Shown here: positions 15,345 to 36,638 of the stretch, piece by piece
Numbering within the stretch: the first letter of the stretch is position 1
How the letters are laid out: every line of letters starts with the position of its first letter
Assembly: GCF_000002075.1 (NCBI RefSeq)
Contig: NW_004797426.1
Location: forward strand, 392,998 to 445,403
From: Aplysia californica
Lineage: Eukaryota
Direction: 5' to 3'
Length of the DNA: 52,406 bases
The notes under the pieces: generated by a model
What the model was told of the DNA's origin: nothing
Databases searched by the model: none
What the model saw: only the letters and a program-made list of their open reading frames with translations
Position numbers and translations under genes: made by a program

Positions 15345-15693
15345 GCACTGCCTGCCAGCCTATCAGCCTCCTCATTGCCCTTCACTTCACTTCAGAGTGC
15401 CCGGGACAGAATATCCACGTGATGGCTCTAAGTGATGAGTGTTGTATTGGGTTCATCCATTCACTCCGAAGCAGCCCTTTCTCAACCCTTCGCAGGATGC
15501 TCTGGGAGTCTGTGACAATGATGAGATGGGTAGTTCTTGGTCTTGTATTTTGAAGCCAGCCAAGCGTTCTTATTACGGCCTCAATCTCCATTTTCATGCT
15601 TGAGTTTGTTCTTTTCAAGGCCCCTGACATGCTTTGATGAACCTGTTTGACGAACGAAGTTTGTTCCCAGTGTACACTACGAAAGCCCCACCC

Positions 15694-15751
<58 letters not shown>

Positions 15752-16310
15752 GACCGATCCATCCCTGTAGATCACTGGGTCCTCTGGCTTGGAATGCTCC
15801 TCAATTAACGGTCATATGTCATTGTCGTTAATGACAGCAGCACATTCCCGTCTTCCACGACCCATAGTGATGAGAACCTTGGCCAGGCTTCTGCAATCGG
15901 GGTTCAGTTCAAACCATTCCTTTCCACAGAATATTTCATCGATGCCACAAACTGCCCTCAATGAGTCTTCAGTTTCTCCCATCCATGATCTTCCCGCTTT
16001 GATCCTGTTTCCCTTGATGCTGATTAGGTTGTCTGGAAAAGGGTGCCTCGGGTCTCCCAAAACATTCAAGTACAGCTTTGCCTGTGCCACCTTATGCCTC
16101 ACTCTGATGCTGGCCAGGTAGAGGATGTATCTCATACAGACAACATGGGTGTCCTTTGTGCAACCCAAGACAGCCCTCATAGCTGCATTCTGTACTCTCT
16201 CCAACCTGTCTATCTGAGTCTTGGACAGGGAGAGGATGCCCAGACCATAGTCTATGGTTGACAGAACAACCAGCTGCATTAGGAGTAACAGAACTCTCTG
16301 TTTAATTTCC
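15345..16310 (-). mobile_element. Truncated non-LTR retrotransposon ORF2 fragment (RT C-terminus + RNase H; I-group-like)
   Basis: LSTIDYG...LERVQNAAMRAVLG; RNase H motifs EIEAV, IIVTDSQSIL, WIFCPGHSEVK; interrupted by (CT)n at ~15697-15748. Confidence 0.8.
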
Positions 16311-16389
16311 GCTAAACAGACAGCACTAAAGACAAAACTGCGACCAAGACAATAAATAAAGCAATACCCTTTTATTGGGAGAAAAATAT

Positions 16390-16410
16390 TGGGTGGCCCT
16401 AAAAAGGGCC
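16390..16410 (-). promoter_or_regulatory. Histone mRNA 3' stem-loop GGCCCTTTTTAGGGCC-ACCCA; AATAAA/purine-rich element at 16376-16367
   Basis: Reverse complement of tgggtggccctaaaaagggcc gives a 6-bp stem, 4-nt loop and ACCCA tail matching the SLBP-binding consensus. Confidence 0.88.
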
Positions 16411-16495
16411 AGTGGTTATAAAAAAAATAAAAGAGGCGACAAAATCACCTCTCTGTCCAACGTGAGATAAATTGGCGACTTTCCTCCCAAAACCT

Positions 16496-17056
16496 TCAAG
16501 TTCCAGCGGAAGCTTTGGTTCGAGCAGGCTTCCGGTATCCCAGCTCCTGTTTCCGGTTCCGCCGGGCGAGTCTCGGAGCCGCCGTGGGGTTGGGCGCGCG
16601 AGGGTCCGCTCTGGTGCGACCTCTCTTCAGCGCCTTGTTGTTCTCCTCGGCCGTACTCCCCGGCAGGAAGATCCGGAGAATGTCCAGCCCGCCCCTGCCC
16701 AACGCCTTGGCTGCTCTCACAAACAACCAATCGGAGCTGTCGCTCTTCACGACTGCTCCCCTACGGCGGCGGGCAGGAGGCCGTTCTGGATCGCCCGAGT
16801 TCGAGTTGGACCCACGGCGCATCGCGGCGCTCTTCTTCACTTTCGCTTTGGGATTTTGCTGCGGGAGCGCCTTCCCTTTCCGGCGGCCGAGCGTTCCGGC
16901 AACGAGCTGTTTGCTACGAGTTCGCGCAGCTCTCACGGTTTCTCTGCGTGCGACGCCAAGTTGCTTCCTTCTGTAGCGGGTTCTTGGCCTGAGTCTCATG
17001 CTGGAGGAAAAGTGGCCCGGTCGGAGAGCGGTTGAGTTCTCCCCAGCCGGAGGCAT
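16496..17056 (-). CDS. Arg/Lys-rich histone H1-like / protamine-like protein, 186 aa, intronless (possibly degenerate)
   Basis: GC-rich ORF with about 34 Arg and 15 Lys. Segment LFVRAAKALGRGGLDILRIFL...NKALKRG resembles the H1 winged helix. Canonical histone 3' stem-loop 85 nt after the stop. Confidence 0.6.
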   Translation of the reverse strand: MPPAGENSTALRPGHFSSSMRLRPRTRYRRKQLGVARRETVRAARTRSKQLVAGTLGRRKGKALPQQNPKAKVKKSAAMRRGSNSNSGDPERPPARRRRGAVVKSDSSDWLFVRAAKALGRGGLDILRIFLPGSTAEENNKALKRGRTRADPRAPNPTAAPRLARRNRKQELGYRKPARTKASAGT

Positions 17057-17764
17057 TTCGCTGGCGCGACACTTCTTTCCAAGTTTGTACGGACCTCCGG
17101 GAGACACAGAGCGACGCCACACGGGAGCTGTGTTGTGCACTGTATAGGCCTATAGGTCTACACAGTAGGCCTAGGCTAGCACACTTTTGTCAGGATTAGT
17201 AAGAGTTTCACGCCACTTGCAACACAATAAAGCTGAAGATTAGAGGCGTTGCAAGGGCTGTAAAACTCTTTTATTATAAAGAAACAAAAAAGTACAATGT
17301 AAAACCCCTGTGTCCTCCAACAGTGTGACTGTGCGTGGTGGGCAGACGCTCTGATGATATCGTTGGTGTTACCTCCTTCCTTTCCTTGTTCCTACCAAAC
17401 ATCTATCGTTCTTATCTCTGCTGTTTTTCTTTTGTGGTAGTAAATTGTAGGTTGCTACTCTCTCGGTGCACTTCTTCTAATCTTCGAAACTTATACGTTA
17501 CACGACAAAATTTGTTGCAAATGCCGTAAAACTCTTTCTTAAACTATACTATATAAAACATCGTGTCTGGGTGTTTTACATATTTACAAGTCAGAAAAAA
17601 GCGTCTTCTAAATTTTTCAAGACTCACCATGAGATCTTGAAACATCTAATCAACTGAACACACACCACAAGACCCGATCCCTGCACCTAAACGCACCACG
17701 CCTGTCCGGAATTAAACAATAGAACAAACTACTCTGATCCTCCTCACCTAGCCTACCACTCCAC

Positions 17765-23604: not shown

Positions 23605-24800
23605 TCCCGTCAAAGACGGTTGCAGTACACTTCTGCCGAACAGGCAGACGTGTGCTGCAGCCGGATTTGACACTATACGGGGAAAGGATTCCCGTCCAGG
23701 ACCAAGCTCGTTTCCTCGGCGTCATTTTCGACAAAAAAACTTACATTCATACCACACATCAAAGACCTTCGTGTGAGGTGCCAGAAAGCGTTAAACGCTT
23801 TGAAAATTCTATCAAATCCGGAGTGGGGCGGGGACTCAAAACACCTTCTCCACTTGTACATCTCCCTTGTCCGGTCCAGGCTTGACTACGGCTGTCAAGT
23901 CTACGGATCGGCAAAACCACACGTCTTAAAAATACTAGATCCAATACAAAACCAAGGACTCCGCCTCGCTCTGGGGGCTTTCGCACTTCTCCGGTGGAGA
24001 GCCTCCAGGCCGAGGCCAACATACCACCACTCTCACTCAGACGCACACAACTCTCACTACAATACGCAGTTAAACAGAGCTCAACACCGGAAAATCCAGC
24101 GCACAACAGCATTTTTCAAACAAATCCAGAAACCAGAAACAGATTCCAAAACAACGAAAAACTCATCAAACCTTTCGGCCTCAGAATCCTCGAGGACCTC
24201 AAAAACTTACACTTTTCCAAACAAGACATCCAACAAATTCTTTTCCCCGACCTCCCTCCGTGGCACCTCACCAAGGCAAAAGTAGATTTACAGCTGACCA
24301 CACACAACAAAGAAAGCACAAACACCAAAACTTTTCAAGCAGAATACAAAAAACTAATAGATAAATACCCCGGTGCGGAGCTCATCTTCACGGATGGCTC
24401 CAAAAAAGACAATGAAGTGGGCGCCGCAGCCCTATCTCCCAACAATACACACCAGAGGAGACTCCATCCTGAAGCCTCCATTTTCACTGCGGAGGCCACT
24501 GCCATTGACATGGCACTGGACTCTGTAGAAAATTCCCCTAACAAATCTTTCCTTATCCTTTCTGACTCTCTGTCTTGCATCACCTCACTCACAAACTACA
24601 CACTCCTACACCCAAAAATAGTTAGGCTACAACAGAAAATCCATACACTATCCGAAACAGGAAAAAACATCATGTTCGCATGGATACCCAGCCATGTGGG
24701 CATCCGAGGAAACGAGCAGGTAGACGACCTGGCGAAGAAAGCTTCATCCCTTCCATTCACACAAACACACATGGACCTGCAAACAAAGTTCCAACAAACA
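23605..24800 (+). mobile_element. Truncated, frameshifted LINE ORF2 (RT C-terminus + RNase H; I-group-like)
   Basis: RFLGVIFD, WGGD...LYISLVRSRLDYGCQVYGSA, IFTDGSK, SIFTAEATAI, ILSDSLS, WIPSHVGIRGNEQVDDLAK; split over three frames. Confidence 0.9.
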
Positions 24801-24975
24801 CACACACACACACACACATGAACCATTCAAAACATATCTATGCACACATACACCCTAACACACATCCACCCACTCGGATATCCTAAGCACACACCAAAAA
24901 ATGCACCAATACACTCCCACACTAAGATACAATATATCTACTCCACCCACACACACACACATTCCCGCACAGGTC

Positions 24976-31452: not shown

Positions 31453-34400
31453 ATGTACTTTCACATCATTCTGGCGGCTGCTTTTCTTTTTGTTGTGTCA
31501 GGAGAAGCAGACATACCCGCTGACATGCACAGTAGTACTGCTGCAGGGGGAGAAACAGAAAGCGAAAGTAGCGGCCTTGATTCCGAAAAGAGTGAAGAAT
31601 CTGTCCCTTCGACGGGTGAAGCAAGCGGTTCTCAAGTGAACCTATCTCCGTTTGAAAAGTGTATCCTTGTGTATTTTAAGACGATCTTAATATTTTTAAC
31701 TCGAGCTTTAATAGCAAAAGTAATTTACTGTTTGTTTGATAAAATCAGCTTGAGGGCTAATTGATTAATAATTCGATCCTTACTGATTAATTGTTGCTTA
31801 GTTATTATGACTGTTGCCCTTACAGTGAGTGATAACTTAAGTAAAGGGAAATTGTTTATTTTGTGAAGAAGGAACACATGTAACAGTTGTACTGCACTTA
31901 CTTCCTTTTCAAACTCCACTTTTTTTCTGTTTTATATTATGCTTTTTCTGTGTAACAATATATTCAATACAAAATATGCAGAAATCTGAAATGGTCCCCT
32001 TCAAAATCATCACGGAGGAAGAACCCTTTGTATGGACTCTACCTAGACTCTAGTACTCAGGTCTTAAAACTACATATTTTTATGCTACAGTGTATTCTAC
32101 TCCCTTAGCCCTAACGATAGGAAGGCCCTCCATCACCTTGTTGCTAAAATTATTAACGGGCTTTGTCTTTGTCTTAGAGTATGATCATGTTTCAATTTTT
32201 TTTCTTTTAAATCCTTAACTCTTCAAAGATAAACGTCTGTTTAATGAACACAGGTCGAGACAGCTGGAAGCTGTGAAATCCATTCTTAATTTTGGAGATG
32301 AAAAGCAGAGATATGAACTTATTAATGTGATGTTGAAACAACTCTTCAAGGTAAAACAAAATTGATTTAATACCGTCGAACCTTCTCGAACAGCCACACC
32401 TGTATTAGACAAACTCCTGTACGAAGACGACTTCCTATCCCCCCCCCCCCCTTTCATTTTCTTTTATATTACAGTGACGCTGCTGTGTAAAATTGTCATT
32501 TACCCCCACTGGACCCCCTTACAAAGATTATACGAGGGGAATTGTTTGAGACGGCCACCCATTGTTGAGGAGAACAGAGGCTGTCTTAAACAATTCCAAC
32601 TGTATCTTGTAGGAGGGATCCAGGCTTTACTTCAGCAACAAGTGTCTTTTTGAGAACCATCGTCACATTTCACAATTGGACAATATCGACTGTATTTTGT
32701 TTTATTCGAACATGGTTTTAAAAGCCACTGTATACAGAACTTGAGTTTGTTCTCCTTGTTGGGTGTGTGTATTGTTCTAATGGTGTTTGCATGGGTGCTG
32801 AAGATAGTAAATGAGGTTTCAAATGTACTTGTCTTTTTCATAAAACTGAACTTACTTACCTTGAATCTATTTAGGACTGAGAGTTCTTGCACAGACAAAT
32901 ATTCTAACAAAAATTGTAGTTGCCGTACCTCTAGAATGCCTTCCATCATGTGCAGAAGTGTGTGTTTTCCTTTGCAGAAAGACAATTTTCTCCGTTTGTT
33001 ATGTTGATGTCAAAGAAAAGTCTTTTTTATTGGACCTCCTAATGAGTGAACGTTCCAGTCAGCACCAGTTGTTGGATGCTTTTTTGAAGTTTAAAGGAAA
33101 ATGAGAAATTGATGCTATAAAATTATTTGTTTCTCCCATGATATTTATTGGAGTAGTTGCAAGGCTCTTACTCTCTATGAGATCATGTAAAGAGTAGTGT
33201 GAAAATTCTTCTTTTCTGAAAAAATATTTTCTGTGATTCCGTGATATTGTTTTGTCTTGTCATTTTTCTGATTAAGATTTATTTGAGGAAGTTTTTAAAA
33301 GGACTATCTCTAATTTTAAAAATGTTTGAAATTGTTAAGTCAATGAGATTGTTATTGTCTTTCACAATTTCCAAATTGAGTTAATGATTTTGATATGAAC
33401 GTGTATAAAAAAATAAATACGCTTAACTCTTTTTCAGACAATCGAGCAGGCTAAGGTAAATCTGACAATGTCTGGATTTCTGCCGGGAGATCCTTTCCCC
33501 GAGAATGACACCGTCAGGGATTGTAAGTTGTGTCAGATCACTTTGATAATAATGTATAATGTATTATAGAATGGCTACTACTTAATCCCTGTGTCATTCC
33601 CCTTCCCCCCCCCCCAACAGTTACAAAAAGATCCACTGTCTACTGACAGGAAGTACACCCTCTCTAAGATTGTTGTATTGTTTACATCGATGGCAAGGGA
33701 CCCTCTGAAGTAGGTAGGAAAAGTGGCCAGATGCATAAAAATCAGTTGCACTGCAGGTTGAAAAACCAACAGTTATTTAAAGTTGAGATTTAGCAGTGGA
33801 AAGCAAGAGGAAGAAGACTAATTTACAATCTTATTTTATTAACTTCATTTTGGTATTTGGTTTCAGCTCTGTGTTTGTCCGGTGGGTACCATTGCGCGAC
33901 GCCAGCGCTTTCTTGTTGAATGTCCATTTTTAATAACAGTGAAAATAGTTCATAACAAAGAGTGAGCTTTAGAAAACGAAACGTTTTCACTGTAAAAAAA
34001 TGGAGATACGACAAGAAAGCACTGAGGTCATGATTGGTAGGTCCTACTTTTTTTCTTTTCCTCTTTTGTTTCTGCCTATCTGTCTTACCTCTTCCTTGTA
34101 CTATATATGACAGTTATTGTGTTGATGTATTTCTCTTTACTCCAGTGGGTGGTTGGCGGGTGCTCTGGTGTGGTTTCTCCTTCTTTCCTATCAAACGTCT
34201 ATCGTCCTTATCTCCCCTTCTTCTTTTTTATGTTTGTTACTCTCTTGAAACACCTCTAATCTTCTGGCGCTCATATGACCTTATACAGTTGCGAGCGTCG
34301 AAAAACCTCAACTAATCTTTACTCCAACTCAAAACTGAACTAACTGTGTTTGCCCCCCCCCCCCAGATGTGTCGAAAGTGTTGGAGAACACGGCCATGTT

Positions 34401-36638
34401 TGGCGACATGGTTCTCCGCCTGCCCGACCTGGTTCACGACCTCTACGACCGACAGCGGGAGTGGCAACTGCTGCTAGCCTGGAGCTACGGCTTCTGCACG
34501 CAGTCCGGCGCCTTCGAGGGACCCAATGAGCAGCTGCTGCATTTGGTGAGTACCCCGTTTGTATTTGTTTGTAGACCCACCAAATACCTGATAAAATTGG
34601 AGGAGCTCTGTAGGTGGTTGGCGGGTGCTCTGGTGTGGTTTGCTCCTTCTTTCCTATCAAACAACTATCGTCTTTATCTCTCCTCCTTCTTTTTTGTGTT
34701 TGTTACTCTCTTGTAACACCTCTAATCTTTGGCACTTATATGACGTTATTTTGTTGCAAGTGCCGTAAAACTCTTACTAAAACTTAACTAAAATATCGGA
34801 GCTCTCTTATGTTTTTTTTACCATTGAAGAGCTCTGATAAGATTTTTGTACAATCTGAATTTTTTTCTTGAATTCGGCTTCTGTCAGGTCATATGTGAGG
34901 TATATATATGCTGTCTAGTATATGGGTGGTGAACATGCACATAGAGAGTAGATGTTCAAATTCCAAATTTTTTCTTTCATGTATATTTTTAAAATTTAAA
35001 ACATGTAAATTGGCCTACATTGTTCTTATCAAAAATATTTCTGCTTCCTGCTGGGGAAAGAAAGTGGAGATGAAAGCTGATGACAGATTATGTTTAGCTG
35101 TCAGGTTTTGAACCTGGGATCTATTGAATGAGAAGTGAAGACCTTACCTCTTGATCACGAGAGCCCCCGAAGCGGCCCTCATTTCATCATGCAACGCGAT
35201 ACTTCTTTTGATTTCTGACGTCCAGTGGTTGGGTGACTGGGGATGAGGGCTCTTGAACTTCCCTGTCAAGCTTTGTGATTTTCAGAACGGAGAACTTGGT
35301 CAGAACGGAGAACTTGTTTCTAATCTGAGACATGATTTTTCAAGTTTTTGTTTTTTTGTCTCTACAGATGGCTCAGGAAGTGGGCATTATAGCAATGGAT
35401 CCAAATTATGTGAACCCCTTTAAAGCTGCAAATCAAAAGGTAAAGTGAAAATGTGTCTCACTGCCAAATAAATTGTATGCATAAAAAAAAAATTGTTTTC
35501 TCTTGTTTATTTAGAGTGGGGGTGTGATATGTTTGCAACTCTGATCTCTGGTAATTTTTGTAAAAACTGAAAATGTGTTGTGTGTCTTTTATGCAGGAAG
35601 CCTGTCAATTTTTCCATGACAGTTGAACGTAATATAGATGTTACTTTATATATATGTATTTACCGTTTTACCAATTGTTGGCATTTTACATAATATATTT
35701 ATCATACTTTTATTGATATTTAAAAAAACATTTTTGTCTTTGACCTCTGTTGCAAAGGAACTGGATTTGAATCCTTATAAGGCCTTTTCCGCCATACTGT
35801 TGTTCTTTTTAGTTTCTTTTCCCAAGCTCCTGATGTTTTTTATTCAGAGATAGGAACTGGACAAGTTCTTTGATCTTTCCTGTGAGATGACCTGTATTGT
35901 GATGCCTTGTTTAAGGTTATTTAACACAAACAAACAAACAAACAAACAAACAAACAAACAAACAAAAGAACAGGTTGATTGCCGATGTTGGTTTTATGGA
36001 GATAAGTCTTCACTCCCTATTACTTTACTCACTGAATGTAAAAACGTCTTTGTCTGTAAAACTTTGTCTGTCTTTCTGCTGTCCTTAACTCTATATGTTC
36101 CCCTGTCATGCACCCTCATCAAAAGTGGCACATCAAAGACTCAACGGCAGTGACATGTCTCTTTTTAATCATTTCGAAATGCTTTTGATAACCCTTGAGG
36201 CATTTTTATATTATAATCATCCTAATGGATCAATTTCTTTTTATATATATCGTCAGCAAGCTGTTAAAATGTTCTATCCCTGAAAGCAAAATTTTATAGG
36301 AGAGAGAAAAAAATTGTTTAATTCTTTTTACATTTATAATTACGTTATGTACTTTTTCGTACTCTTTTTAACTTAAAGAATGTGAATTTTGACAAAATAT
36401 TTCTTGAACACACGCAGAAATACCACAAATGAAGAAATTGCAATGAGAAAAAAATAAAAATTTTATGGGCGGCTTGGTATAGTTTAAAAAATTGTGAAAT
36501 CCCATCTATAGAAATGTTTGTGAATGTCTGTTTGCTTTTTATTTGCAGAAGAAACGATATGAGGAGCCGGCCAAACCTGCGAAGAAAAAGCAGAAGAAAA
36601 TAAGACGAGGCCCAAGGTTGAGCCACTCAGAGTTGTAG
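31453..36638 (+). CDS. CCDC134: CCDC134 (ER-luminal), 251 aa; join(31453..31660,32229..32350,33438..33522,34367..34545,35368..35439,36549..36638)
   Basis: Signal peptide; YKRLF..R.RQLEAVK, VMLKQLFK, PGDPFP, VLENTAMFGDMVLRLP, MAQEVGI...NYVNPFK; C-terminus RRGPRLSHSEL (KDEL-like); phases consistent (756 nt). Confidence 0.93.
31661..32228 (+). other. U12-type (minor spliceosome) GT-AG intron, CCDC134 intron 1
   Basis: 5' site GTATCCTT; branch point TCCTTAAC at 32212-32219 just before the AG; the join restores TAT (Tyr) in frame. Confidence 0.9.
34146..34315 (+). mobile_element. Representative of an abundant ~170-bp SINE-like / LINE-3'-end element (15 or more full or partial copies)
   Basis: gggtggttggcgggtgctctggtgtggttt...cctatcaaac...cacctctaatctt..ggcgctc..gagcgccgtaaaac, then a ctaaaa-type tail. 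Approximate other copies: 5889, 11085, 14008, 14420(-), 14563, 14857, 17200(-), 17337, 21886(-), 28235(-), 30186(-), 34611, 37905, 38856, 39942, 42933. Confidence 0.8.

What the first reader, a model, noticed from the sequence alone, without database searches (positions are those of the whole stretch)
16365..17056. Arg-rich H1-like ORF with perfect histone stem-loop plus poly(A) signal, and H1 motifs scattered across frames
Seen: GGCCCTTTTTAGGGCC-ACCCA 85 nt after the stop, then AATAAAAGGG 14 nt further on. Arg outnumbers Lys about 2:1, the reverse of somatic H1, and there is a ~105-aa basic N-terminal arm. H1-like pieces (AGEYG, SG/TLARP, GGS before RLAR) sit in the alternative frames, suggesting small indels in the globular domain while one frame stays open. 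Known: dual stem-loop/poly(A) signals occur in mollusc histone genes, and Lys-to-Arg shifts mark H1-to-protamine evolution. Inference: an H1 remodelled by frameshifts towards a protamine-like protein, a young pseudogene, or consensus errors.
Basis: partly seen in the sequence, partly recalled or inferred. Interest (0 to 1): 0.7.

Follow-up and report, generated by a model that had tools for sequence, protein, structure and literature searches.

The report
Basic orphan gene with histone-type ends
This stretch reads as an intact, intron-free gene for an arginine-rich protein with no recognisable histone fold, set between a promoter word and RNA-end hairpin that it shares with about 25 scattered genes of the same genome (odd linker histones and acidic non-histone proteins), so it likely makes a sperm DNA-packing protein by the histone message route, although expression is untested.

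Summary
The stem-loop, its spacing, the AATAAA and the 34:15 Arg:Lys ratio are real. Contigs from three samples match the locus letter for letter, which rules out assembly error. The reading 'H1 remodelled by frameshifts' is not supported. A frameshift-aware H1 globular-domain profile scores the gene within shuffles (-4 to -17 bits), whereas eight true variant H1s carrying 2-4 simulated indels average 18-59 bits. Codon bias shows the open frame is the long-standing one over codons 106-145. Only a short shift near 16617 stays possible. The AATAAA lies inside a conserved downstream element; 0 of 13 sister elements carry AATAAA there. The gene belongs to a dispersed class: 26 of 31 non-canonical stem-loop loci share a promoter word one base away from the canonical H1 promoter. 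The class holds variant Arg-rich H1s, 20 acidic non-histone ORFs and, by promoter, short non-coding units. Best reading: a 167-aa basic orphan, likely an eroded H1 variant acting in sperm chromatin and made as a non-polyadenylated message (0.5); pseudogene 0.25. The scan noted non-histone genes with histone-type ends before, in other genomes.

The parts
17087..17102 (-). Promoter word (core CCCGGAGGTCCG) shared by the class; resembles the H4-box type element of H1 genes (label from PMC6027317 passages; its letters were not checked against a paper)
   Evidence: present at 26 of 31 non-canonical stem-loop loci; 50 exact hits genome-wide against 4 for the reversed control; canonical H1 carries a one-base variant 128-134 nt before ATG in 3 of 4 printed
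17054..17056 (-).
   Evidence: 23 of 26 other class members have an in-frame ATG 58-93 nt after the word
16496..16999 (-). Likely coding sequence: 167 aa, Arg 20%, Lys 9%, net charge +38, no recognised domain (186 aa if the first ATG is used)
   Evidence: other frames hold 6 and 2 stops; no homologue
16547..16741 (-).
   Evidence: GC4 32/36 against 24/44 and 23/39; GC3>GC1,2 p=0.003; AF2 pLDDT 54-60
16591..16617 (-). Only segment where a local frame change cannot be excluded (frame-1 word TLARP in the wing position)
   Evidence: shift at 16617 recurs; upper 0-9% of shuffles in forced alignments of a hand-picked segment, scores still negative; codon bias uninformative here
16390..16410 (-). Histone-type stem-loop (6-bp stem, 4-nt loop) plus ACCCA; predicted mRNA end at 16390
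16346..16377 (-). Class 'A-type' downstream element (purine-rich TAAAAGG core, TTGC, then TTGTCTT); the AATAAA at 16376-16371 overlaps its core
   Evidence: 8.8 bits against a model of 13 sister elements, 1 of 300 shuffles as high; sisters score 11.8-31.4 leave-one-out
17196..17270 (.). High-copy palindromic repeat upstream of the promoter (not part of the gene)
15385..16313 (-). LINE fragment (RNase H) just downstream of the 3' signals (not part of the gene)

Best explanation
A single-copy, intron-free open frame for a 167-aa Arg-rich protein without a detectable histone fold sits between an H1-type promoter word and a histone stem-loop with its downstream element; it is likely transcribed into a non-polyadenylated message cut after ACCCA by the SLBP/U7 route, and the protein is predicted to bind DNA by charge in developing sperm. 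Shown: the sequence is correct, the frame is open, and the promoter and 3' signals are those of a dispersed class of at least 26 loci that includes variant Arg-rich H1 genes and acidic non-histone ORFs. Inferred from established metazoan histone biology: stem-loop-dependent 3' end formation. Inferred from class membership (8 of 10 basic members keep a winged helix): descent from a variant H1 gene whose domain eroded mainly in frame. Inferred from composition only: germ-line chromatin role, as a transition-protein-like or protamine-like packer.
For: Identical contigs in three samples. Promoter word at 26 of 31 non-canonical stem-loop loci; about 0.002 such neighbours expected by chance. Canonical H1 promoter differs by one base. 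Second ATG at the class distance. Perfect stem. Downstream element above 299 of 300 shuffles. Open frame has 0 stops against 6 and 2 in the others, with GC4 0.89 over codons 106-170; GC4 picks the true frame in 7 of 9 known H1-type domains. Sister genes with Arg-rich tails have PF00538 hits (3 over cut-off, 4 weak) and two have relatives elsewhere, the L034 group in named gastropods, so the basic branch of the class is old. A second basic member (L024) also lacks the domain.
Against: No homologue in 5.8 billion proteins (lengths 102-326 only), in 1.84 billion representatives or in the own genome, unlike two of its sisters. No DNA or protein likeness of the coding body to class members: best z 1.6 of 26; in 21 pairwise tests four topped their 25 shuffles, at unrelated places. 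An open frame this long arises in 7.5% (185 codons) to 16% (167 codons) of shuffles. The downstream element is the weakest of its type. The synonymous-codon score picks the true frame in only 13 of 25 known genes, so it adds little. The last 16 codons show no frame-0 bias. U7 snRNA was not found. Tissue and function are untested.
Confidence: 0.5

Rival explanations
1. Young pseudogene or decaying copy of the class: the signals persist but the open frame is a by-product of GC-rich, T-poor sequence and is not under selection.
For: No orthologue; open frame has 7.5-16% chance probability; weakest downstream element of 14; repeats inserted close on both sides.
Against: Promoter word and stem are intact; strong GC4 bias in the open frame; a young dead copy should resemble a parent, and none is found in the genome; no variant letter in contigs of eight laid runs where they cover the ORF (contigs drop rare variants).
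Confidence: 0.25
2. One reading: an H1 whose globular domain was rewritten by several small frameshifts, giving a protamine-like protein.
For: Class kinship with variant H1s. In the 270-nt segment chosen by eye, a +1 shift at 16617 recurs and forced alignments reach the upper 0-9% of shuffles; sister proteins have similar short words at that place. An off-frame acidic start after the second ATG resembles sister N-termini by eye (not tested).
Against: Whole-ORF frameshift-aware scores equal shuffles (32 of 100 as high at penalty 5), while 8 of 8 held-out variant H1s with 4 simulated indels average 18-52 bits. Frame 0 carries the codon bias across AGEYG. Different profiles give different shift paths apart from 16617. 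Arg enrichment is spread over the whole ORF, not confined to a shifted part.
Confidence: 0.15
3. The promoter/stem-loop cassette captured a non-H1 sequence (for example a homeobox remnant or a de novo frame), as it seems to have done for the acidic family.
For: Residues 1-58 resemble engrailed homeodomain, E 0.04-0.2 in PDB sequences; forced alignment to 27-28 own homeodomains is in the upper 1-13% of codon shuffles; the class holds 20 non-histone ORFs.
Against: Score -2 bits against 48-60 for real divergent homeodomains; the invariant WF is missing; no Pfam hit at E<=10; DNA match to the own engrailed exon is at chance, 35 of 300. H2A, H2B, H3 and H4 comparisons are at chance.
Confidence: 0.09
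4. Assembly consensus errors hide an ordinary H1.
For: The assembly does hold frameshifted or gapped canonical H1 copies (L003, L005).
Against: Contigs of X1, X2 and X7 span the whole gene with 0 differences and 0 gaps; no DNA likeness to canonical H1.
Confidence: 0.01

Closest known systems
Replication-dependent histone genes of animals (stem-loop RF00032, downstream element, SLBP, U7 snRNP)
   Same: No intron, short UTRs, 6-bp stem with 4-nt loop, ACCCA, purine-rich element 15-25 nt downstream (features as described in passages of PMC5011920 and PMC13525598).
   Different: Product is not a recognisable histone; gene is solitary; UTR of 85 nt is longer than the 30-51 nt of intact canonical H1 here; downstream element is of a class-specific type.
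Variant Arg-rich H1 genes of the same genome (L017, L019, L021, L034, L047, L048, L052, L084) and gastropod relatives P0001-P0011
   Same: Same promoter word, same type of 3' end, similar length (137-213 aa) and net charge (+16 to +49; window +38).
   Different: They keep a detectable winged helix (leave-one-out 27-68 bits); the window gene does not, and its basic region is mainly N-terminal.
Protamine-like (PL) sperm proteins of molluscs and tunicates
   Same: Arg-rich, H1-related sperm proteins (passages of PMC13251019); a frameshift origin of a tunicate PL is recalled, the paper was not held.
   Different: No winged helix detected; Arg+Lys 29%; expression unknown.
Bivalve 'orphon' H1 genes with stem-loop and poly(A) signal
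   Same: Solitary H1-type gene with both signals in the 3' flank (poly(A) signal in mussel orphon H1 mentioned in a passage of PMC6210712).
   Different: Here AATAAA overlaps the downstream element, is private to this copy, and canonical H1 loci of this genome lack it.
Non-histone genes with histone-type ends noted earlier by this scan (e1-9828411, e1-10589364, e1-7908639)
   Same: Intronless non-histone ORFs ending in stem-loop plus downstream element.
   Different: Other genomes; unchecked notes; kinship with this class was not tested directly (a sequence look-up with one acidic member found nothing).

Membership tests
Linker histone H1 | Winged-helix globular domain by sequence (PF00538 or own profile) | tested here: not met
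Linker histone H1 | Winged-helix fold by structure | tested here: inconclusive
   Single-sequence AF2 models, pLDDT 60.5 and 54.5; Foldseek no match at E<=0.001; VIA rows cover only the N-terminal helix
Linker histone H1 | Long Lys/Ala/Pro-rich C-terminal tail | tested here: not met
   Lys 9% against 28-29% in canonical H1; only about 20 residues follow the putative domain
Linker histone H1 | H1-type promoter element | tested here: met
   One base from the element before canonical H1
Frameshift-derived H1 | Domain recovered when frameshifts are allowed | tested here: not met
   Whole ORF within shuffles, controls far above; marginal only in a hand-picked segment
Replication-dependent histone-type gene | No intron | tested here: met
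   Continuous frame between promoter word and stem-loop
Replication-dependent histone-type gene | Stem-loop plus ACCCA | tested here: met
   (33 bits, gathering 34)
Replication-dependent histone-type gene | Downstream element pairing with U7 | tested here: inconclusive
   Conserved purine-rich element at the right place; U7 not found
Replication-dependent histone-type gene | Non-polyadenylated message, S-phase expression | not testable with these tools
   Needs 3' end mapping
Protamine-like PL-I | Winged helix between basic tails | tested here: not met
   As for H1
Protamine-like PL-I | Major protein of sperm chromatin | not testable with these tools
   Needs proteomics
Protamine | Small (30-106 aa; 3-10 kDa), built of Arg clusters | tested here: not met
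   167 aa, Arg 20%; sizes from passages of PMC12216123 and PMC13251019
Homeodomain | Three-helix domain with invariant WF..N | tested here: not met
Promoter-word/stem-loop class of this genome | Promoter word, ATG 58-93 nt later, single ORF, stem-loop, A- or B-type downstream element | tested here: met

The most novel reading that the evidence does not exclude
This gastropod runs a whole non-histone programme through the histone message pathway: one H1-derived promoter/3'-end cassette, dispersed over dozens of loci, drives variant H1s, domain-less basic proteins such as this one, about 20 acidic proteins, short non-coding RNAs and tandem stem-loop arrays that could titrate SLBP, as a germ-line regulon invisible to poly(A)-based annotation; this gene has put a true AATAAA on top of its U7 element, making a switch between two 3' ends.
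Probability: 0.35. Interest if true: 0.8.

Novelty: new variant of a known kind. Interest (0 to 1): 0.5.

Why it matters
The stem-loop route is taken to be reserved for histone messages. A genome with about 20 acidic non-histone ORFs and domain-less basic ORFs that share the H1 promoter word and the histone 3' signals makes that assumption testable, and points to a set of genes that annotation misses (0 of 10 tested sequences are in a 15-billion-protein collection by exact match; start choice can cause misses).

Tried and rejected
Expression: no RNA holder listed. Contigs of runs only guessed to be RNA cover parts of the ORF (X14 16563-17029; X18 16610-16804 and 16850-17057, same study; X20 16397-16665; X19 runs on upstream; X2 spans everything); this is not counted as evidence either way. 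Runs labelled organism B match with 0 differences, so they gave no orthologue. Homologue searches were blank: ORF, acidic family alignment A2 (only the 7997 best candidates scored, lengths 95-373). Frameshift-aware H1 alignment: first profile, enlarged profile of 22 sequences, five sub-profiles: none significant. Core histone likenesses seen by eye (H3 tail, H2A, H2B, H4) fell within shuffles, 4-37 of 50 as high. Engrailed likeness rejected. Structure: Foldseek no match; VIA only long-helix rows at Z<=5; the 81-aa domain model was too poor to search. U7 snRNA: 7 weak hits, none over cut-off, with 11 of 14 control genomes also ringing; a pattern search found none. Synonymous-codon frame score unreliable (13 of 25). 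Papers: eight searches listed no paper on non-histone stem-loop genes in gastropods; most subscription papers are not held, and two recalled papers (early evolution of histone 3' processing; H1 and the origin of protamines) could not be opened. No supplements were read.

Full report
Observation. On the minus strand an ORF runs 17056-16496 (186 aa, 34 Arg, 15 Lys). A perfect histone-type stem-loop lies 85 nt after the stop at 16410-16395; Rfam Histone3 scores it 33 bits, E 2.1e-7, just under the gathering score. AATAAA follows at 16376-16371. The locus is single-copy and lies between a high-copy palindromic repeat and a LINE fragment; no other histone gene or stem-loop was seen in the window.

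Assembly error is excluded. Contigs from runs X1, X2 and X7, three samples of which X1 may be the assembly's source, span 16227-17225 with no other letter and no gap. Five more runs match where they cover.

Is it an H1? Pfam finds nothing in any frame, and the genome-wide linker-histone search lists 21 places without this one. I built globular-domain profiles from the genome's own H1-type genes and 11 database relatives and aligned them to the DNA with frameshifts allowed. Over the whole ORF the forced alignment scores -8 to -10 bits, with 9-32 of 100 shuffles as high; five sub-profiles give -4 to -17. As a control, each of eight variant H1s was held out with its family, given 2 or 4 random indels and rescored: means 18-59 bits, lowest single value 11.5, against shuffle maxima of at most 9. 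The method sees frameshifted divergent H1s and does not see one here. Codon bias argues that the open frame is old: over codons 106-170, GC at four-fold sites is 32/36 in the open frame against 24/44 and 23/39, and 17/18 against 10/23 and 10/22 over codons 106-145, which include AGEYG. It is uninformative for codons 146-156 and absent in the last 16 codons. Single-sequence AF2 models are poor, profile comparison gives 0.65% and fold searches found nothing useful. Likenesses to core histones and to engrailed were tested and dropped.

What it belongs to. The genome has 54 exact matches to the stem-loop pattern and 0 for the reversed control. Upstream ORFs: 13 canonical H1, 9 H3-type, 1 H4 and 31 others. 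The 31 are 8 basic ORFs (this gene among them), 20 acidic ORFs of one loose family (alignment of 11) and 3 unrelated hits. 26 of the 31 carry the promoter word (core CCCGGAGGTCCG, up to 2 mismatches) 575-880 nt upstream; of the five without, three are the unrelated hits. Chance expectation is about 0.002. The canonical H1 promoter has the same word with one base changed (3 of 4 printed). An H4-box element in differentiation-type H1 promoters is described in passages of PMC6027317; equating the two rests on recall. A genome search for the word gives 50 hits against 4 for the control; 29 further hits were fetched and hold another variant H1 (L084), two more acidic-type copies, short non-coding units and stem-loop arrays, as well as about ten hits with neither stem-loop nor class ORF. 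Of 10 basic members, 8 keep a winged helix; this gene and L024 do not. The L034 group has relatives in Bulinus, Elysia, Plakobranchus and Candidula, and L019 has one unnamed relative; the window ORF and the acidic family have none. In 23 of 26 other members an in-frame ATG lies 58-93 nt after the word; here the ATGs lie at 33 and 90 nt, so the protein is likely 167 aa from 16999, with net charge +38.

The poly(A) signal. The flank after the stem-loop aligns with a conserved element of 13 sister loci (purine-rich TAAAAGG core, TTGC, TTGTCTT): 8.8 bits, 1 of 300 shuffles as high, sisters 11.8-31.4. The AATAAA overlaps the core and no sister has it there; 12 canonical H1 loci have no such signal within 100 nt. 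The same element ends short non-coding units that have no histone stem-loop, so it is a signal in its own right: most likely the U7-pairing element by position, possibly an snRNA-type 3' box or weak poly(A) signal. U7 was not found. The AATAAA may work, since U/GU-rich sequence follows, but it is a private change, not a class feature.

How it likely works. Shown: intact promoter word, open frame and stem-loop, correct sequence, class membership. Inferred from established histone biology (passages of PMC5011920, PMC13525598): transcription from near 17060, SLBP binding, cleavage after 16390, no poly(A) tail, which would explain why 0 of 10 class proteins tested are on record. Inferred from composition and from the Arg-rich sisters: a mostly disordered protein that binds DNA by charge in spermatids or sperm. 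Descent from a variant H1 by in-frame erosion is favoured by the 8-of-10 prior and cannot be shown from sequence. A pseudogene remains the main rival: the frame has 7.5-16% chance probability, there is no orthologue, and the downstream element is the weakest of its type.

Comparison and novelty. It works like a histone-route gene and probably like a sperm basic protein; it fails membership of H1, PL-I and protamine on tested features. Papers were seen as search listings and as passages (PMC13525598, PMC6027317, PMC13251019, PMC6210712, PMC5011920, PMC3256202, PMC12216123); none seen describes this class. Earlier unchecked notes of this scan report non-histone genes with histone-type ends in other genomes. 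Verdict: new variant of a known kind, interest 0.5; the class around the gene is more surprising than the gene.

Noticed in passing
L072, L073, L089 (G000 C14, C42, C635): Promoter word plus TATA-like box followed by tandem arrays of 13, 18 and 23 histone-stem-loop-like units, then a type-P1 twister ribozyme match (46-52 bits, gathering 67, E 5e-9 to 3e-7); could be SLBP decoy RNAs.
   Followed up: partly
L068-L070, L080-L082, L085, L090, L091, L095: Family of short (about 130-180 nt) non-coding units: same promoter word plus TATA-like box, a long hairpin, then the A-type downstream element with no histone stem-loop; no Rfam match at E<=0.05 for the six tested (six of ten printed).
   Followed up: partly
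L029-L033, L035, L037-L046, L049, L058-L060, L071, L093: Acidic non-histone intronless ORFs (those measured 106-213 aa, net -18 to -31 in 11 measured) with a basic amphipathic start ending in Cys residues and a short hydrophobic C-terminal motif, about 100-220 nt before a stem-loop; no Pfam hit in 11 tested and no homologue.
   Followed up: partly
L025, L051, L053-L056, L061: Seven near-identical H3 variants with a shortened, altered alpha-N/L1 region and a 10-residue insertion in helix 2, each with a stem-loop.
   Followed up: no
L086 (G000 C566, 1.6 kb from L017): Promoter word followed by a 174-aa ORF that joins an acidic-family start to a basic Arg/Lys/Cys block; no stem-loop found.
   Followed up: partly
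L034 and P0001-P0011: A variant H1 with a distinctive wing, conserved across heterobranch gastropods and named only as hypothetical or H15-domain protein.
   Followed up: partly
window 47865-52122 (-) and 34339-34713 (+): Otopetrin exons and an ERK-JNK inhibitor domain exon; ordinary neighbours (150 of 271 longer frames scanned).
   Followed up: no
window 23671-24818 (+) and 15385-16313 (-): Two LINE fragments with RNase H domains.
   Followed up: no
window 17196-17270 and 17513-17539; L048 upstream: High-copy palindromic repeat; a copy also sits just upstream of the promoter word in L048 and in several other class loci.
   Followed up: no
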